Shown in pieces: positions 36,015 to 42,679 of a DNA stretch of 47,107 bases. Source of the stretch: a bacterium (GTDB lineage Bacteria > Patescibacteriota > Minisyncoccia > Phycocordibacterales > UBA6065); the NCBI GenBank assembly GCA_030680695.1, contig JAUXUT010000149.1, positions 602,324 through 649,430 on the forward strand. The letters are read 5' to 3'. The notes under the pieces are model-generated. The model was given only the letters and a program-made list of their open reading frames with translations, was not told the DNA's origin and made no database searches. Made by a program: the position numbers and the translations under genes. Positions within the stretch are counted from its first letter, which is position 1. Every line of letters starts with the position of its first letter.

Positions 36015-36089
36015 GGTGCCTATAGTTTAGTGGTAAAACTTCGGTTTGTGGAACCGATATCCAGAGTTCGATTCTCTGTAGGCACCCCA
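36015..36089 (+). tRNA. tRNA-His(GTG), probable integration site
   Basis: G-1 plus acceptor GTGCCTA/TAGGCAC, C discriminator and CCA; anticodon arm TCGGT-TTGTGGA-ACCGA. Confidence 0.95.
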
Positions 36090-37664
36090 TTCGAGAATCA
36101 GTTGTTGAAAAGCGATGTTTCGCGCCTCAACAGAACTGTATTCTCTCAGTCCTAACCTCTCAAATTCAGCCCTAAATTCAGGGTATGCTTCTTTGATTGG
36201 CTGGAGCCATTCGTTGGCTGTGATAAAGACTTTCCCATGTTTTATGTAGAAGTTCTGACCGAGTGCCGAGAATATCTCACGTTTTCTTTGAAGATTACCC
36301 ATAACGAATTCCTTTCTAGCAAAGCATGCAAAGCTAAATACCTGCTCTGTAAGGTCCAGCCACTTTGAAGCACGTCCCTCGGTTTCCCGGAGTTTCGCTT
36401 GTAATCGGGCGATTTTATCTTTAAGTATGTCGCGCTCTTTAACAAAGCCCTCATCATCGATAAGATCGCGGTAGCGCATCTTTGTCAGGTTATCGAGCTC
36501 GGTCTGTGACTCGACGACAGTCTTGTGCTGCATTTCGTAAATCTTGGTACGCTCCTCAATTTCTTTATCATTGTTGCGATTCAAAGCCTCAATAGCCCAA
36601 GTCTGAAACTCGGGGAGGATGGTGTACTCCTCAAGCAAAAGCTCGATCTGCTGTTCGAGGTCAATGAGGTTGATTGGGTTTCGCTTAGGACATGGCACAC
36701 CTTTCTTGTGGCCTGAACAATGGTAGTAAGTGTATGTTTTGAGATCGCCAGTTTTCTTTATGGTTTTGGTCTTTTCCGTTCCGGTGTACATCGCACCACA
36801 CAGACCGCAGCGAATAAGTCCGGTAAATGCGAACTCGTGTGTTTGACCTCTCGGCTTGCCGGTCCTGCCGAAGATAGCTTGGACCCGATCGTACTCCTCG
36901 AGGGTGATCATCGGCTTATGATTTCCTTTGTAGACTTTCTTGCCCCACTCGAACATTCCTGTATAGAAAATATTCTTAAACATTTTATAAATCACGCTCG
37001 AAGCCATCTCAACTCCACCGCTCCGCTTACTCTTCAGGGATCGATAGCCCCATTCCTTGCTTGCGATCTCGGCGATACTCACTGGTGTGTAGTTTCCTGT
37101 AAGCATAAGGTCCCACATCTTTCGGATGAGGTCGAAGCGTTCAGGGTCAGGCTGAATTGTGTGCTCAAGTCTTTCGTTGATATAACCAGCCGGAGCCTTT
37201 GAGGGGAACCAACCACGATCAGCTTTACCATGCATGCCACGCTTGGTGTTTTTGCGCAGTTCAATGATGAACTGATTCGCCATTCCACTCTCAACGCTAA
37301 AGAGAAGTACGTTATCATCAGGCAGATACTCGCGTTCCATCGTCTGAATGGATTCGATAATTCCTTTCTGAAGCATCCAGCTTAGCTTTCCACTGTCGAT
37401 TGGGTTTCGTGCGAGGCGATTGATCTGCCAGCAGAGGATTCCTTTTGCTTCGCCTTTCTCAATTCGCTTGAGCATGTCATTGAAGATAGGACGGCCCGGC
37501 TGTTTTGCCGACTTTGCTTCGGTCAGGATTTCTTTGACTGAAATGCCTAGGGAATTAGCTCGCTCTTTGAGGCGGTTTATCTGGTCCTCGATTGACTGCT
37601 CCTGCCGATCCTCGGACTCAGAGGATTTGCGGGCGTACATGAAATATTCAACGTTTGTAGCCAT
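36027..37664 (-). CDS. large serine recombinase (resolvase, recombinase and Zn-ribbon domains)
   Basis: YARKSSE catalytic motif; RP.F, NRLARN and APAGY; CGLCG...YYHC...C Zn ribbon; coiled coil. Confidence 0.95.
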   Translation of the reverse strand: MATNVEYFMYARKSSESEDRQEQSIEDQINRLKERANSLGISVKEILTEAKSAKQPGRPIFNDMLKRIEKGEAKGILCWQINRLARNPIDSGKLSWMLQKGIIESIQTMEREYLPDDNVLLFSVESGMANQFIIELRKNTKRGMHGKADRGWFPSKAPAGYINERLEHTIQPDPERFDLIRKMWDLMLTGNYTPVSIAEIASKEWGYRSLKSKRSGGVEMASSVIYKMFKNIFYTGMFEWGKKVYKGNHKPMITLEEYDRVQAIFGRTGKPRGQTHEFAFTGLIRCGLCGAMYTGTEKTKTIKKTGDLKTYTYYHCSGHKKGVPCPKRNPINLIDLEQQIELLLEEYTILPEFQTWAIEALNRNNDKEIEERTKIYEMQHKTVVESQTELDNLTKMRYRDLIDDEGFVKERDILKDKIARLQAKLRETEGRASKWLDLTEQVFSFACFARKEFVMGNLQRKREIFSALGQNFYIKHGKVFITANEWLQPIKEAYPEFRAEFERLGLREYSSVEARNIAFQQLILEWGAYRESNSGYRFHKPKFYH

Positions 37665-40416: not shown

Positions 40417-40445
40417 TTGACAAATAGGCTCTATTGTGATATACT
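40417..40445 (+). promoter_or_regulatory. consensus sigma70 promoter of the DGR target gene
   Basis: TTGACA-17 nt-TATACT with extended TG. Confidence 0.8.
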
Positions 40446-40587
40446 TCCTACCAGGAAAACGAACCTTGATATTGCGGGATTTGCTACAGCAGAAAGCGGC
40501 TTACGTGGCTAAGCCATTCTCTGCTGTAGCGAAACCAATGTGGCCAAGCTAGCAGCAAACAACATCAAACAGAAAGGAAATCTGACC

Positions 40588-41301
40588 ATGGATACCATGC
40601 TCAGCAAGGCGCTCCGCGAATTCACAACCGGACCGCTCAATCAGCTCATTGTGAACCTCGGTGGCCAGGACGGCGACCAGTGGGAACAACAGCTCAAGCA
40701 GTTTCTCCGCAAGGAGCCCTGCTGGACCAACGGCCAAGTCACGCAAGTGGCGGAACCGAAACCCACACCCTCGATTCTCGAGCTCGTCTCGACGATCGTG
40801 GTCAATGCAACCACTGGCAAGCTCGTCGCCAAAGAGAAGTTCGTTCGTGACACTGGCCGCAAAGCCAAGGTCAAGATCAGCTACCTCGGCGACAACTTTA
40901 CCTCGTGGTTCCTGAACGGTGACGGCAAGACCGAAGACTCGATCAGCGAACAGACGCTCCGCTACCACAAGTTGCGGCAGTCCTCGGTGGACGGTCCTAT
41001 CATTGCCGAACTCGGCGGTGCGGAGAAGTCGGAAACGACACTCTCCGAGATGTTCTCCCTCATGGAGAAGCAGGGTAAGGGTGAAGACGGGGTTCTCTTG
41101 AACAACGGCTACGCCAATATCTTCTACATCAAGGACGACGCTGGTGTGCTCCGCGCGGTCCGCGTGCGCTGGCGCGGCGGCGGCTGGCTCGTCTGTGCGA
41201 GCTCCGTCGAGGGCCCGCGCAGGTGGGATGATGGCGACCAGGTGTTCTCTCGCAATTCTGTTCTCGAATCCTCGGAACCTTCGGCTCCGGCGCAAGCCTG
41301 A
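40588..41301 (+). CDS. DGR target (variable) protein, C-terminal CLec-like variable region
   Basis: AGAAAGGA SD before ATG 40588; the 3' part is the VR matching the downstream TR. Confidence 0.9.
   Translation: MDTMLSKALREFTTGPLNQLIVNLGGQDGDQWEQQLKQFLRKEPCWTNGQVTQVAEPKPTPSILELVSTIVVNATTGKLVAKEKFVRDTGRKAKVKISYLGDNFTSWFLNGDGKTEDSISEQTLRYHKLRQSSVDGPIIAELGGAEKSETTLSEMFSLMEKQGKGEDGVLLNNGYANIFYIKDDAGVLRAVRVRWRGGGWLVCASSVEGPRRWDDGDQVFSRNSVLESSEPSAPAQA
41137..41255 (+). repeat. DGR variable repeat (VR)
   Basis: 119-bp gapless copy of 41607-41725 (offset 470) with 23 mismatches, all opposite TR adenines. Confidence 0.95.
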
Positions 41302-41324
41302 TCCTTTGTCCCTTGGACACTTTG

Positions 41325-41363
41325 ACCCTCGGTTTGCTTCGGCAGACCGGGGGTTAATTTTTT
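41325..41363 (+). terminator. intrinsic terminator after the target gene
   Basis: accctcggtttgc-TTCG-gcagaccgggggt (with G-U pairs) followed by a T-rich run. Confidence 0.75.
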
Positions 41364-41606
41364 ATATATAAATTGATATACTGTTTCTCGAAATCATGTG
41401 TTACGCGGCGGTTAAGGCTTTCGCGTCATGGTCTTAGGATATTTTTCCCGAGAGTTGCGCTGGGTATGCCTTGCGCGAGAGTGAGAGAAGTCTCTTCAAA
41501 AAAAGAATAAGAATTGGTACATGAGACTGGCGGACTTCGATGTCCCGGATAAAATTCAGCCTGTCATGATTTGGCGGGCGGTGATGCAGATGGTCCCATG
41601 TACGAT

Positions 41607-41725
41607 AACGCTGGTGTGCTCCGAACGGTCAACGTGAACTGGAACGACGACGGCTGGAACGTCAATGCGAACTCCGTCGAGAACCCGAACAGGTGGAATG
41701 ATGGCAACCAGGTGTTCTCTCGAAA
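41607..41725 (+). repeat. DGR template repeat (TR), likely within a non-coding RNA
   Basis: AAC/AAT-rich copy of the VR; 11 AAY codons in the VR frame; all 86 non-A positions identical to the VR. Confidence 0.95.
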
Positions 41726-41743
41726 CTGTTATCTTTCTTCTGC

Positions 41744-41851
41744 TCAACTAGCAGAAGTTTTCTTTTGTAGGCCATTCTTCCAACCACCAAGTTGTCGGCC
41801 GATCTCCTCGAGCCCCGAGATGAGCTCCGAATACCGTTGATAATCAATGCC
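41744..41851 (-). pseudogene. avd: 3' fragment of DGR accessory variability determinant Avd (four-helix bundle)
   Basis: Manual translation GIDYQRYSELISGLEEIGRQLGGWKNGLQKKTSAS*; the EIGR.LGGW motif matches the Avd/23S-IVP four-helix-bundle C-terminus; no ATG/GTG/TTG before an in-frame upstream stop. Confidence 0.75.
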
Positions 41852-41853
41852 GG

Positions 41854-42174
41854 ACCTTTGAGCGGACCCCTGGGGCTTATAAGCAATTAGGAGAAGAGCA
41901 GCTTCGAGATGTGATTCTTTCTGCCCTGAATGGCATCTTTGAAGGAGATGCTACTGGAGAAACTTTTGTTAAGAAAGGTAAAACGGATATACACCTCAAA
42001 ATCGAGAAAGGAGAAATCCTCATTTTTGAATGTAAAAATTGGGGTGGAGAAAAAATATACCTAGACACTATAGATCAACTAATGGGGTATGTTACCTGGA
42101 GACAAAACTACGGTGTCGTAATTATGTTCTCAAAAAATAAAGTTTTTTCAAAGACACTGGCCCAGATACCAGAT
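41854..42174 (+). pseudogene. internal fragment of a PD-(D/E)xK-like nuclease-domain protein
   Basis: TFERTP...EEQLRD...GETF.KKGKTDI...FECK.W.G...IDQL.GY.TWR; no proper 5' end. Confidence 0.6.
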
Positions 42175-42615
42175 ATGGTAGTAACCAAATCACGACTTCA
42201 CGCGGTCCGATATAAGATCGCGTTTGATAAGTATCTTAAAGAAAAAGGATACGGGCATAAAGCACTCGTGGCTTTCTCGGGAACGGTCAAGGATGTTGAT
42301 ACTAAGCTGGAGTATACGGAAGGACAGATGAATAAGGTCCCAGAAAGCCAGACTGCTGAAGAATTTAAAAATGATGACCATAAGTTCTTAATCGTCGCCG
42401 AGAAGTTCCAAACTGGATTTGACCAACCACTCTTGTCGGTGATGTACGTCGATAAGAAACTTGGCGGCGTAAGCGCGGTCCAGACGTTATCTCGCCTCAA
42501 TCGAACTACTTACGGAAAAGATGACACCTTTGTGCTCGATTTCGTAAATCAAACAGACGACATCAAAGAAGCTTTCCAGCCCTACTACACAACTACAGTC
42601 TTATCAGAAGCAACT
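42175..42615 (+). pseudogene. hsdR: internal fragment of type I restriction subunit R (helicase motifs)
   Basis: MVVT.SRLHAVRY, LVAFSG, LIVAEKFQTGFDQPLL.VMYVDKKL, AVQTLSRLNRT and VLDFVN; about 147 aa of a roughly 1000-aa protein. Confidence 0.85.
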
Positions 42616-42679
42616 GAGGAGGCTTTTTCAGTGATGCCCAGGAAAGGGCACTTTCAGAGCTTTTGAGGCTGGGACAGGA

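What the first reader, a model, noticed from the sequence alone, without database searches (positions are those of the whole stretch)
40417..41851. DGR cassette with a perfect adenine-only TR/VR signature but no reverse transcriptase in the window
Seen: 41137-41255 (inside the target ORF) and 41607-41725 align gaplessly over 119 bp. There are 23 mismatches, all at TR adenines (23 of 33 A's), and all 86 non-A positions are identical. Known: this is the hallmark of DGR mutagenic retrohoming, which needs a DGR RT and usually Avd. Seen: no ORF here has RT motifs. Inference: the absence of non-A drift means retrohoming was recent. Either the RT was deleted very recently, freezing one selected variant, or this is a non-autonomous cassette served in trans by an RT elsewhere in the genome or on a co-resident element.
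Basis: partly seen in the sequence, partly recalled or inferred. Interest (0 to 1): 0.9.

Follow-up and report, generated by a model that had tools for sequence, protein, structure and literature searches.

The report
Beheaded DGR: template kept, enzyme deleted
This is a real hypermutation cassette (diversity-generating retroelement) whose reverse transcriptase gene was cut away by a deletion, leaving an intact target gene and template RNA gene that are most likely a freshly frozen relic.

Summary
VR 41137-41255 and TR 41607-41725 align without gaps over 119 bp. All 23 mismatches fall on TR adenines and all 86 non-A positions are identical.

The window holds no RT. The reason is visible. After the TR, only the last ~30 codons of an antisense avd gene remain. 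At 41830-41834 they are fused to a PDC-S54 defence-gene fragment and then an HsdR fragment. Intact relatives continue TR-(avd)-RT.

The following survive:
- the target gene, a C-type-lectin-like fold at weak Z;
- a self-contained TR-RNA gene, made of a promoter-like site, a 222-nt covarying leader, the TR and a terminator.

The same contig carries two complete DGRs. One, DGR-A, lies 43 kb upstream. Its leader belongs to the same RNA family, and its RT nests among RTs that naturally serve this RNA type.

RT loss with leader retention recurs in 4 of 28 evaluable related loci. One of these, in G102, keeps a perfect A-only signature in a genome with no RT at all. A perfect signature therefore does not prove activity.

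My odds are: young frozen relic about 0.6, trans-served about 0.25. This is a new member of a known kind, of moderate interest.

The parts
40417..40445 (+). Promoter-like site of the target gene (TTGACA, 17 nt, TATACT, with TG before the second hexamer; 11 of 12 matches)
   Evidence: This is a consensus match only. One site was found and 1.0 is expected from shuffles, so it is not significant by itself.
40588..41301 (+). DGR target gene, 237 aa (an alternative GTG start at 40540 gives 253 aa). It has an N-terminal three-helix part and a C-type-lectin-like domain at about residues 65-228.
   Evidence: ORF. No Pfam, NCBIfam or PADLOC family matched. 824 homologous clusters were found, all unnamed. 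AF2 model pLDDT 93.4. The VIA-align list is dominated by C-type lectin and FGE-like folds, including the DGR targets TvpA (2y3c, Z 5.1) and Mtd (1yu0, Z 4.0). All Z are 5.2 or lower, which is weak.
41137..41255 (+). Variable repeat (VR), codons 184-223 of the target
41322..41357 (+). Terminator-like hairpin plus T-run after the target gene
41374..41382 (+). Extended -10-like element (TGnTATACT) in front of the TR-RNA gene. It is conserved as TGCTATACT in six of the seven closest relatives (L004, L007, L009, L019, L021; TGATATACT in L017); L024 reads TGTTATAAT.
   Evidence: Read by eye. The consensus scan did not call it. Inference.
41385..41606 (+). Structured 5' leader of the DGR RNA (hairpins P1 and P2, a long-range helix P3 enclosing two hairpins). 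It resembles Rfam RT-9 below threshold.
   Evidence: 93% mean column identity in 8 sequences. 34 of 48 predicted pairs show compensatory changes in 22 sequences. Covariance model R1 scores W at 248.8 bits. RF03080 scores 27.4 bits against a gathering score of 46.1, and 30.6-33.5 bits at the same place in L007, L009 and L017.
41607..41725 (+). Template repeat (TR), 33 adenines, 12 AAY codons in the target's frame
   Evidence: It is 92-97% identical to the TRs of RT-bearing relatives.
41737..41767 (+). Terminator-like hairpin (8 pairs) plus TTTTCTTTTG directly after the TR. An equivalent hairpin and T-run follow the TR in DGR-A, DGR-B and the relatives.
41744..41833 (-). Stump of the accessory gene avd: the last ~29 codons plus the TGA stop (…YSELISGLEEIGRQLGGWKNGLQKKTSAS*). 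No start codon is present.
   Evidence: tblastn with AvdA residues 105-135: 52% identity, E 2.7e-4. A family HMM matches positions 92-125 of 127. Nucleotide homology to intact relatives ends at 41833.
41830..41834 (.). Deletion joint: avd codon ~99 of 127 (minus strand) abuts position ~249 of 410 of a PDC-S54 gene (plus strand)
   Evidence: The joint is confirmed in an independent contig of run X1. No cover of 41840-42173 was seen in three other studies that do cover the cassette.
41830..42198 (+). Fragment of a PDC-S54 candidate defence gene (profile positions 249-368 of 410)
   Evidence: (E 6.8e-49).
42160..42666 (+). C-terminal fragment of a type I restriction R subunit (HsdR), fused in frame to the PDC-S54 fragment. 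This is a second deletion scar.
   Evidence: TIGR00348 positions 519-669 of 674, E 3.1e-20. PF22679. PADLOC REase_I.

Best explanation
The locus is a genuine DGR of the CPR-typical TR-(avd)-RT layout that has lost its protein machinery. A deletion with its joint at 41830-41834 removed about the first 98 codons of avd and the whole RT gene. It fused the avd stump to a fragment of a defence gene. Two things were left untouched. One is the target gene, with its VR in a lectin-like C-terminal domain. The other is the TR-RNA gene as a self-contained unit: promoter-like site, 222-nt structured leader, TR and terminator. Before the deletion, the RT-Avd complex copied the TR RNA into cDNA, misreading adenines, and the cDNA replaced the VR. 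That process wrote the present VR. I judge that the deletion is young and that the VR is now frozen at the last allele written. Shown: the A-only signature, the stump, the joint, and the intact RNA gene. Inferred: that no diversification goes on now.
For: (1) The stump and joint are described. (2) Fifteen relatives with the same target and a 92-97% identical TR continue with a full antisense avd and an RT. (3) The flank is a string of gene fragments, PDC-S54 then HsdR. This is a region of deletional decay. (4) Decay of this DGR family is common. Among 73 loci with this target, 15 are intact, 2 more have avd before the contig ends, 5 are partly deleted (L006, L010, L077, L078, L099), 22 keep only the target with its VR, and 29 cannot be judged. 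(5) In the wider leader family, 4 of 28 evaluable loci lack avd and RT. In 3 of those 4 genomes no DGR-type RT was found at all. G102, which is 100% complete by markers, still shows 13 A-only mismatches and 0 non-A mismatches over 118 nt. A pristine signature therefore needs no ongoing activity. (6) The source run's Logan assembly passes the VR in a single contig at depth 17, and only two other short, unrelated contigs were laid. In run X3, by contrast, contigs break at 41136 and 41282, the VR borders.
Against: The TR-RNA gene shows no sign of relaxed constraint. There are 0 non-A TR/VR mismatches. W deviates at 0 of 41 leader positions that are invariant in 21 other leaders. It has 6 private changes in 391 nt, against 0-21 in RT-bearing relatives. 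Two complete DGRs sit on the same contig. DGR-A has a leader of the same RNA family, 76.9 bits and E 4e-19 with a model built without it. The single-contig argument is weak: Logan contigs drop rare variants, and the VRs of the presumably active DGR-A and DGR-B were also assembled straight through in the 649-kb contig. No raw reads could be examined.
Confidence: 0.6

Rival explanations
1. The cassette is non-autonomous but alive. The orphan TR-RNA gene is still transcribed. Its RNA is used in trans by the RT-Avd pair of resident DGR-A (43 kb upstream) or, less likely, DGR-B. The VR therefore keeps being rewritten.
For: [quoted passage not shown] The RNA and the proteins must therefore meet in trans anyway. 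Wu et al. 2018 (PMC5758913, section 22 read) note that TR and RT need not be co-transcribed. In the own genome, R1 finds only the leaders of W and DGR-A. RT-A is sister to the RT of L009 (68% identity, support 0.87). L009's RT serves a W-type RNA, with its leader 85% identical to W's and its TR 88-94% identical (94% over the aligned 110 nt; 88% over all 119 nt), and shows an A-only VR. The same RNA module occurs with very different enzymes. L019 and L021 have 100% identical leader, TR and tail, but RTs 63% identical in protein. W-type RNA pairs with Avds only 36-42% identical to each other, and Avd-A is 40-44% identical to them. Near-identical target alleles with 1 to 4 differences outside the VR (P0003, P0271: 1 each; P0004: 4) carry wholly different VRs in other data sets (P0003, P0271, P0004). 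Diversification was therefore active very recently in this lineage.
Against: No polymorphism of this VR was seen (contigs only, so this is weak). DGR-A's leader is far from W's in sequence: 76.9 against 248.8 bits, and it was not found by BLAST at E 1e-10. RT-RNA specificity in this clade is untested. DGR-B's leader is not recognised by the model at all. Among 73 loci with this target, none keeps the leader and TR without an RT. Most RT-less leaders elsewhere sit in genomes with no DGR RT. So the state looks like decay, not a maintained design.
Confidence: 0.25
2. Structural polymorphism. The population holds both the deleted form, which was assembled, and cells with an intact avd-RT. Diversification happens in cis in the latter. 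This was proposed for two loci of Thiohalocapsa PB-PSB1 (PMC10907252, passages read).
For: Relatives with a ~90% identical island context in run X2 continue past 41812 with avd-like sequence. An intact ancestor in this same context therefore existed.
Against: In the probable source run X1 no contig diverges at the joint. The shown loose ends lie at 40964, 41018 and 41616 only, and 68 further loose ends across the four runs were not shown. No W-type RT or avd was found elsewhere in the 93%-complete genome.
Confidence: 0.08
3. Assembly or binning artefact. The RT-less junction is a chimeric join, or the repeat is a chance similarity.
For: The genome is a 156-contig MAG with 2.55% estimated contamination.
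Against: The joint lies inside a 649-kb contig and recurs without a difference in an independent 16-kb contig. The A-only pattern has a chance probability of 1.5e-13. The TR, leader and target all have many homologues.
Confidence: 0.02

Closest known systems
CPR/Patescibacteria DGRs of architecture B3, TR-(avd)-RT (Wu et al. 2018, PMC5758913, section 22 read; Paul et al. 2017 recalled, not read)
   Same: The order and strands match: target, TR, antisense avd. The VR is C-terminal, the signature is A-only, and the relatives are Paceibacteria-type MAGs. The two other DGRs of this genome and at least 15 loci with the same target have exactly this layout.
   Different: Here avd is reduced to about 30 codons and the RT is absent.
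'Degenerate' DGR loci of Thiohalocapsa PB-PSB1 (Doré et al. 2024, PMC10907252, passages read)
   Same: One genome holds several DGR loci. Some are complete and some have missing machinery. The same open question arises: diversification in trans, diversification before the disruption, or intact variants in the population.
   Different: The phylum is different, as are the architecture and the target family. There, read data showed diversification at most incomplete loci. Here no raw reads were available. There, trans use mostly concerned VRs that match another locus's TR. Here the orphan keeps its own TR, and only the enzyme would be borrowed.
Bordetella phage BPP-1 DGR (mtd-avd-TR-brt). Mechanism recalled from Liu 2002, Guo 2008 and Handa 2018, which were not read here. 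Wu 2018 cites that avd, TR and brt work in trans from a plasmid.
   Same: Adenine-specific TR-to-VR information flow, AAY-rich TR, VR in a lectin-like C-terminal domain, Avd accessory protein.
   Different: [quoted passage not shown] Here the conserved, covarying RNA domain lies upstream of the TR and a terminator-like hairpin follows the TR. The priming site in this family is unknown.
Rfam RT-9 RNA (RF03080; Weinberg et al. 2017, PMC5737381, RT-motif section read)
   Same: Full-length (1-92) matches at the same place, about 205 nt upstream of the TR, in W and in three of the seven relatives' loci scanned. The paper speculates that further RT motifs belong to DGRs.
   Different: All matches are below the gathering score: 27.4-33.5 against 46.1 bits. 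The leader defined here is longer (222 nt) and has additional helices.

Membership tests
Diversity-generating retroelement (DGR) | A TR/VR pair whose mismatches fall only at TR adenines | tested here: met
   23 of 23 mismatches at A and 86 of 86 non-A positions identical.
Diversity-generating retroelement (DGR) | VR inside, usually at the 3' end of, a protein-coding target gene | tested here: met
   The VR covers codons 184-223 of a 237-codon ORF, and 14 of 16 changed codons are non-synonymous.
Diversity-generating retroelement (DGR) | Target VR displayed on a C-type lectin or Ig fold | tested here: inconclusive
   The AF2 model has pLDDT 93.4. Foldseek against the PDB found nothing at E <= 0.001. 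The VIA-align list is dominated by C-type lectin and FGE-like folds, including TvpA (Z 5.1) and Mtd (Z 4.0), but all Z are 5.2 or lower.
Diversity-generating retroelement (DGR) | A DGR-type reverse transcriptase encoded next to the TR | tested here: not met
   No PF00078 hit in the window. No tblastn hit with RT-A or RT-B. Two DGR RTs lie elsewhere on the contig, at C134:599528-600547 and 458268-457384.
Diversity-generating retroelement (DGR) | Accessory gene avd (in 74% of DGRs according to Wu 2018) | tested here: not met
   Only HMM positions 92-125 of 127 remain, and there is no start codon. For comparison, Avd-A of the resident DGR-A matches PF22296.
Diversity-generating retroelement (DGR) | IMH/IMH* elements at the 3' ends of VR and TR that direct homing | not testable with these tools
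   VR and TR are identical apart from adenines up to 41255/41725 and diverge from 41256/41726. The functional elements of this family are not defined.
Diversity-generating retroelement (DGR) | Ongoing diversification of the VR in the population | not testable with these tools
   Only Logan contigs were on hand, not raw reads.
Rfam RT-9 RNA (RF03080) | Score at or above the family's gathering threshold of 46.1 bits | tested here: not met
   27.4 bits in W and 30.6-33.5 bits in three of the seven relatives' loci scanned, always at the homologous place and over the full model. It is probably a distant relative but is not filed as a member.
B3-type DGR leader RNA family defined here (model R1) | Full-length match to the covariance model directly upstream of a TR | tested here: met
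   W scores 248.8 bits, but W is part of the model. DGR-A was not in the model and scores 76.9 bits, ending at its TR. 45 of 151 genomes of the order, including G000, have a match.

The most novel reading that the evidence does not exclude
The orphan is a working, enzyme-less template gene. In this clade the RNA module (target, leader, TR) and the protein module (avd, RT) are interchangeable parts. The L019/L021 mosaic suggests this: the RNA gene is identical but the RTs are only 63% identical. One resident RT-Avd pair, DGR-A, would then service a second, foreign TR RNA in trans. If so, a genome could multiply its hypervariable loci by keeping only cheap 0.4-kb RNA genes.
Probability: 0.25. 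Interest if true: 0.75.

Novelty: new member of a known kind. Interest (0 to 1): 0.45.

Why it matters
DGR surveys start from the RT gene, so RT-less cassettes go uncounted. This locus and the four RT-less leaders found in 150 sampled genomes show that loss of the enzyme with retention of the template is a regular fate in Patescibacteria. They also show that a perfect adenine-only signature cannot be read as proof of activity.

The locus is a natural test case for how specific a DGR RT is for its RNA, a point not tested experimentally to my knowledge. The genome holds one orphan RNA gene and two complete enzyme sets, one of them with a homologous leader.

The work also assigns a place and a probable role, the 5' domain of the DGR RNA in TR-(avd)-RT elements, to a conserved structured RNA that resembles the orphan Rfam motif RT-9.

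Tried and rejected
- Direct DNA alignment of the three cassettes of the genome was uninformative. Protein and HMM comparison were needed.
- A gapped tblastn suggested that avd homology reaches 41947 (AvdA residues 81-135, E 1.3e-5). I rejected this for three reasons. The plus strand there is clearly PDC-S54 (E 6.8e-49). The family HMM stops earlier. Nucleotide homology ends at 41833.
- A possible fourth DGR at C134:503-505 kb (weak hits) is a serine recombinase region with no RT or avd.
- No att-like direct repeat of tRNA-His was found. A DNA search of 10 genomes of the family did not reveal an empty site because the flanks are too diverged. The borders of the putative integrative element stay undefined.
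- The first AF2 run, with 9 close sequences, failed at pLDDT 42.
- Foldseek against the PDB gave no match at E <= 0.001.
- The ESM Atlas gave only unnamed clusters.
- A scan of viral contigs found no relative of the target.
- Literature searches for RT-less, orphan or remnant DGR cassettes gave only the Thiohalocapsa study. Supplements of Wu 2018 and Roux 2021, which may list incomplete cassettes, were not open.
- Parts of the window without contig cover in runs X2, X3 and X5 are not taken as absence.
Full report
**1. The observation**

The repeat is exactly as described. Window 41137-41255 and 41607-41725 align without gaps over 119 bp with 23 mismatches. Every mismatch is at an adenine of the downstream copy (14 A>G, 7 A>C, 2 A>T). 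23 of 33 adenines are changed and all 86 non-A positions are identical. The chance that 23 random mismatches all hit A is 1.5e-13. In the frame of the ORF 40588-41301 the TR reads as an AAY-rich template with 12 AAY codons. Sixteen codons differ and 14 of those changes are non-synonymous. This is a DGR signature beyond reasonable doubt.

**2. No RT in the window, but two in the genome**

The window is the last 47 kb of a 649-kb contig (C134:602324-649430) of a 1.24-Mb, 156-contig genome. PF00078 hits the genome three times, never inside the window.
- One hit, on C64, is a 498-aa group-II-intron-like RT on a 59% GC contig.
- The other two are complete DGRs on the same contig as the window.
  - DGR-A lies at C134:598541-600547. 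Its RT ends 1.8 kb before the window starts and its cassette is 43 kb from the finding.
  - DGR-B lies at C134:457384-459232.

Both have the order target/VR, TR, avd on the opposite strand, RT. Both have perfectly A-only TR/VR pairs: 18 mismatches in 132 nt and 18 in 118 nt. This is architecture B3 of Wu et al. 2018. That paper says B3 accounts for 90% of its CPR set (PMC5758913, section 22).

**3. What happened to the RT here**

Directly after the TR, the minus strand encodes …YSELISGLEEIGRQLGGWKNGLQKKTSAS*. This is the C-terminus of Avd.
- tblastn with Avd-A residues 105-135 gives 52% identity and E 2.7e-4.
- An HMM of nine Avds of this family matches only positions 92-125 of 127.
- Nucleotide homology to intact relatives runs from about 40566 to 41833 and stops there.

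From 41830 the plus strand matches positions 249-368 of 410 of the PADLOC candidate defence protein PDC-S54 (E 6.8e-49). From about 42160 it matches the last 150 positions of HsdR (TIGR00348 519-669 of 674; PF22679). Both fragments lie in one open frame to 42666.

The RT, and about 98 of about 127 avd codons, were therefore lost in a deletion whose joint lies at 41830-41834. A second scar lies 350 bp further on. The joint is present without a difference in an independent 16-kb contig of the probable source run X1. In three other studies that carry the cassette at 95-99% identity, the contigs leave the window's sequence at 41806-41812 and do not cover 41840-42173. The reverse complement of the X2 loose end reads like avd.

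**4. What is left**

- The target is intact at 237 aa.
  - It has no Pfam, NCBIfam or PADLOC family.
  - It has 824 unnamed homologous clusters and 2531 representatives at E <= 0.001.
  - With 68 diverse sequences AF2 gives pLDDT 93.4.
  - Foldseek finds nothing significant.
  - A full structural scan lists mainly C-type-lectin and FGE-like folds for residues 65-228. These include the DGR targets TvpA (Z 5.1) and Mtd (Z 4.0), but no Z exceeds 5.2. I call this lectin-like, not proven.
- Between the target's terminator (41322-41357) and the TR lies a non-coding stretch that is more conserved than the coding sequence.
  - Mean column identity is 93% across 8 genomes. The target's non-VR part, sampled in five of the pairs among those 8 genomes, is 80-94% identical.
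  - In 22 leaders, down to about 62% identity, 34 of 48 predicted pairs show compensatory changes.
  - Rfam's RT-9 model matches the same place, full length but below threshold, in W and in 3 of the 7 relatives' loci scanned (27-33 bits against 46.1). Weinberg et al. 2017 found RT-1 to RT-19 next to RT genes and guessed that more of them belong to DGRs (PMC5737381).
- An extended -10-like TGATATACT precedes the leader. This was read by eye.
- A hairpin with a T-run follows the TR in all three cassettes of this genome and in the relatives.

The TR RNA thus looks like a separate transcription unit of about 375 nt (about 41390-41765), and the deletion spared all of it.

W deviates at 0 of 41 leader positions that are invariant in the other 21 leaders. 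It has 6 private changes in 391 nt, inside the range of RT-bearing relatives (0-21).

**5. Relatives with the same target**

I examined 26 loci from species genomes and 47 from metagenomes for leader, TR, avd and RT. The 73 loci fall into these groups:

| Group | Loci | Count |
|---|---|---|
| Complete | | 15 |
| Have avd before the contig ends | | 2 |
| Partly deleted | L006, L078, L099 (leader piece only); L010 (VR directly followed by avd, RT in two pieces); L077 (target ends in a 97% TR-like copy, then avd and RT) | 5 |
| Only the target with its VR, with at least 1.5 kb of unrelated sequence downstream | | 22 |
| Cannot be judged | | 29 |

None keeps a whole leader and TR without an RT. 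Two targets are themselves broken (L010, L025).

**6. The wider leader family**

A covariance model of the leader (R1) finds only W and DGR-A in the own genome. DGR-A scores 76.9 bits, E 4e-19, over the full model and ends at TR-A. DGR-A was not used to build the model. DGR-B is not found.

In 150 sampled genomes of the order plus G000, 45 of 151 have a match. Of the 29 best loci, 28 can be judged. Twenty-four have avd and RT in the canonical place and 4 do not.

| Genome | State of the RT-less locus | RT elsewhere in the genome |
|---|---|---|
| G102 (100% complete, 8 contigs) | Whole leader, 118-nt TR/VR pair with 13 A-only and 0 non-A mismatches, terminator, then a tRNA-synthetase-like gene (named from its sequence by eye; no family search) | No RT (PF00078: 0 hits; RT-A query: one 13-bit fragment) |
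| G145 (97% complete) | Truncated TR | No RT |
| G093 (one closed contig) | Half a TR | Only a 499-aa RT next to a LexA-like/DNA-methyltransferase-like fusion gene; I judged by eye, from its sequence motifs, that it is not of DGR type |
| G080 | Orphan leader followed by a copy 98% identical to its VR and poor in adenines | A complete DGR on another contig |

RT loss with the template left behind is therefore recurrent. In most cases there is no enzyme left to borrow. A spotless A-only signature can outlive the enzyme.

**7. Could the orphan be served in trans?**

Several findings keep this open.
- The architecture forces the RNA and the proteins to assemble in trans.
- DGR-A's RNA is of the same structural family.
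- In an RT tree, RT-A is sister to the RT of L009 (68% identity, support 0.87). L009's RT serves a W-type RNA, with its leader 85% and its TR 88-94% identical to W's, and shows an A-only VR.
- The RNA module is found with very different enzymes. L019 and L021 share a 100% identical leader, TR and 111-nt tail, but their avd is 80% identical and their RT 61-68% identical in DNA (63% in protein). W-type RNAs pair with Avds only 36-42% identical to each other, and Avd-A is 40-44% identical to them.
- Alleles of the target with 1 (P0003, P0271) to 4 (P0004) differences outside the VR carry entirely different VRs in other data sets. The lineage was therefore diversifying until very recently.

Against trans-service:
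- DGR-A's leader is distant in sequence.
- RT-RNA specificity in this clade is untested.
- No VR polymorphism was seen in the source run. That test rests on contigs only. It is also uninformative because the VRs of DGR-A and DGR-B were assembled straight through as well.

**8. Verdict**

This is a real DGR, truncated by a deletion, with the template RNA gene and the target intact.

| Reading | Odds |
|---|---|
| Young frozen relic | about 0.6 |
| Enzyme borrowed from DGR-A or DGR-B | about 0.25 |
| Intact variants elsewhere in the population | about 0.08 |
| Artefact | about 0.02 |

Degenerate DGR loci and the trans question are already described for Thiohalocapsa (PMC10907252). This is therefore a new member of a known kind. 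Its value is as a natural test of RT-RNA specificity, and as a warning that TR/VR purity does not prove activity.

Noticed in passing
G000:C134:598541-600547 (L002), just upstream of the window start: Complete DGR-A: target with VR 598541-598672, leader 598779-599020, TR 599018-599149, avd on the minus strand 599174-599587, RT 599528-600547. It has 18 A-only mismatches in 132 nt.
   Followed up: yes
G000:C134:457384-459232 (L003): Complete DGR-B in mirror orientation, with 18 A-only mismatches in 118 nt. Its leader is not recognised by model R1, so it may use a different RNA type.
   Followed up: partly
window 41385-41606; 45 of 151 genomes of the order (G000 included): A 222-nt structured RNA upstream of the TR, with 34 of 48 pairs covarying, is widespread in TR-(avd)-RT DGRs. 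It resembles Rfam RT-9 below threshold. Where cDNA priming occurs in these elements is unknown.
   Followed up: partly
L019 5147-6868 versus L021 6646-8352: Mosaic DGRs: the leader, the TR and the next 111 nt are 100% identical, but avd is 80% and the RT 61-68% identical in DNA. This points to recombination that swaps RNA and protein modules. L004 versus L097 has a breakpoint inside the RT.
   Followed up: partly
L143 / L145 (G102:C1, about 22.4-23.0 kb): A second pristine RT-less cassette: leader, 118-nt TR/VR with 13 A-only and 0 non-A mismatches, and a terminator. It sits in a marker-complete genome where no RT was found.
   Followed up: yes
L137 / L146 (G080:C4, about 38.0-38.3 kb): An orphan leader is followed not by an A-rich TR but by a copy 98% identical to the nearby VR. 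The template seems to have been overwritten by its own product or by gene conversion.
   Followed up: partly
L077 5550-5668 and L010 837-953: Target genes whose 3' end is TR-like (97% identity in L077) and is followed directly by avd. This fits recombination between VR and TR that deleted the leader. L010 also has an RT with an internal deletion and a stop in the target.
   Followed up: partly
window 41824-42666 (+): One open frame of 281 codons is made of a PDC-S54 fragment and an HsdR C-terminal fragment joined in frame. The absence of stops suggests young deletions. It might be translated as a chimera.
   Followed up: partly
window 36016-37664: A large serine recombinase (545 aa) abuts tRNA-His. 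G244, a genome of the same family, has an 82% identical copy next to its tRNA-His. Together with the DUF5659, Trans_reg_C and unknown ORFs up to about 40320, this looks like a small integrative element that carries the cassette. Its borders were not found.
   Followed up: partly
proteins P0003, P0271/P0002, P0004: Alleles of the target from other data sets differ from the window's by 1 residue (P0003, P0271/P0002) or 4 residues (P0004) outside the VR, but at about 15 A-encoded codons inside it.
   Followed up: partly
window 40417-41900 in public runs: Twenty runs from 14 studies (groundwater, freshwater, sediment, cave) hold 0.2-1.0 of the sampled words (19 of them, all but the probable source run X1, hold 0.21-0.42). 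In X3 the contigs break exactly at the VR borders (41136 and 41282), as expected for a hypervariable VR in a population that has the enzyme.
   Followed up: partly
protein P0121: A 926-aa protein carries five stretches that match this target domain, so tandem arrays of the domain exist.
   Followed up: no
G000:C64:700-2196: A 498-aa RT with the best PF00078 score lies on a 3.2-kb contig of 59% GC, against 48% for the genome. It is probably a group II intron on a mis-binned contig.
   Followed up: no
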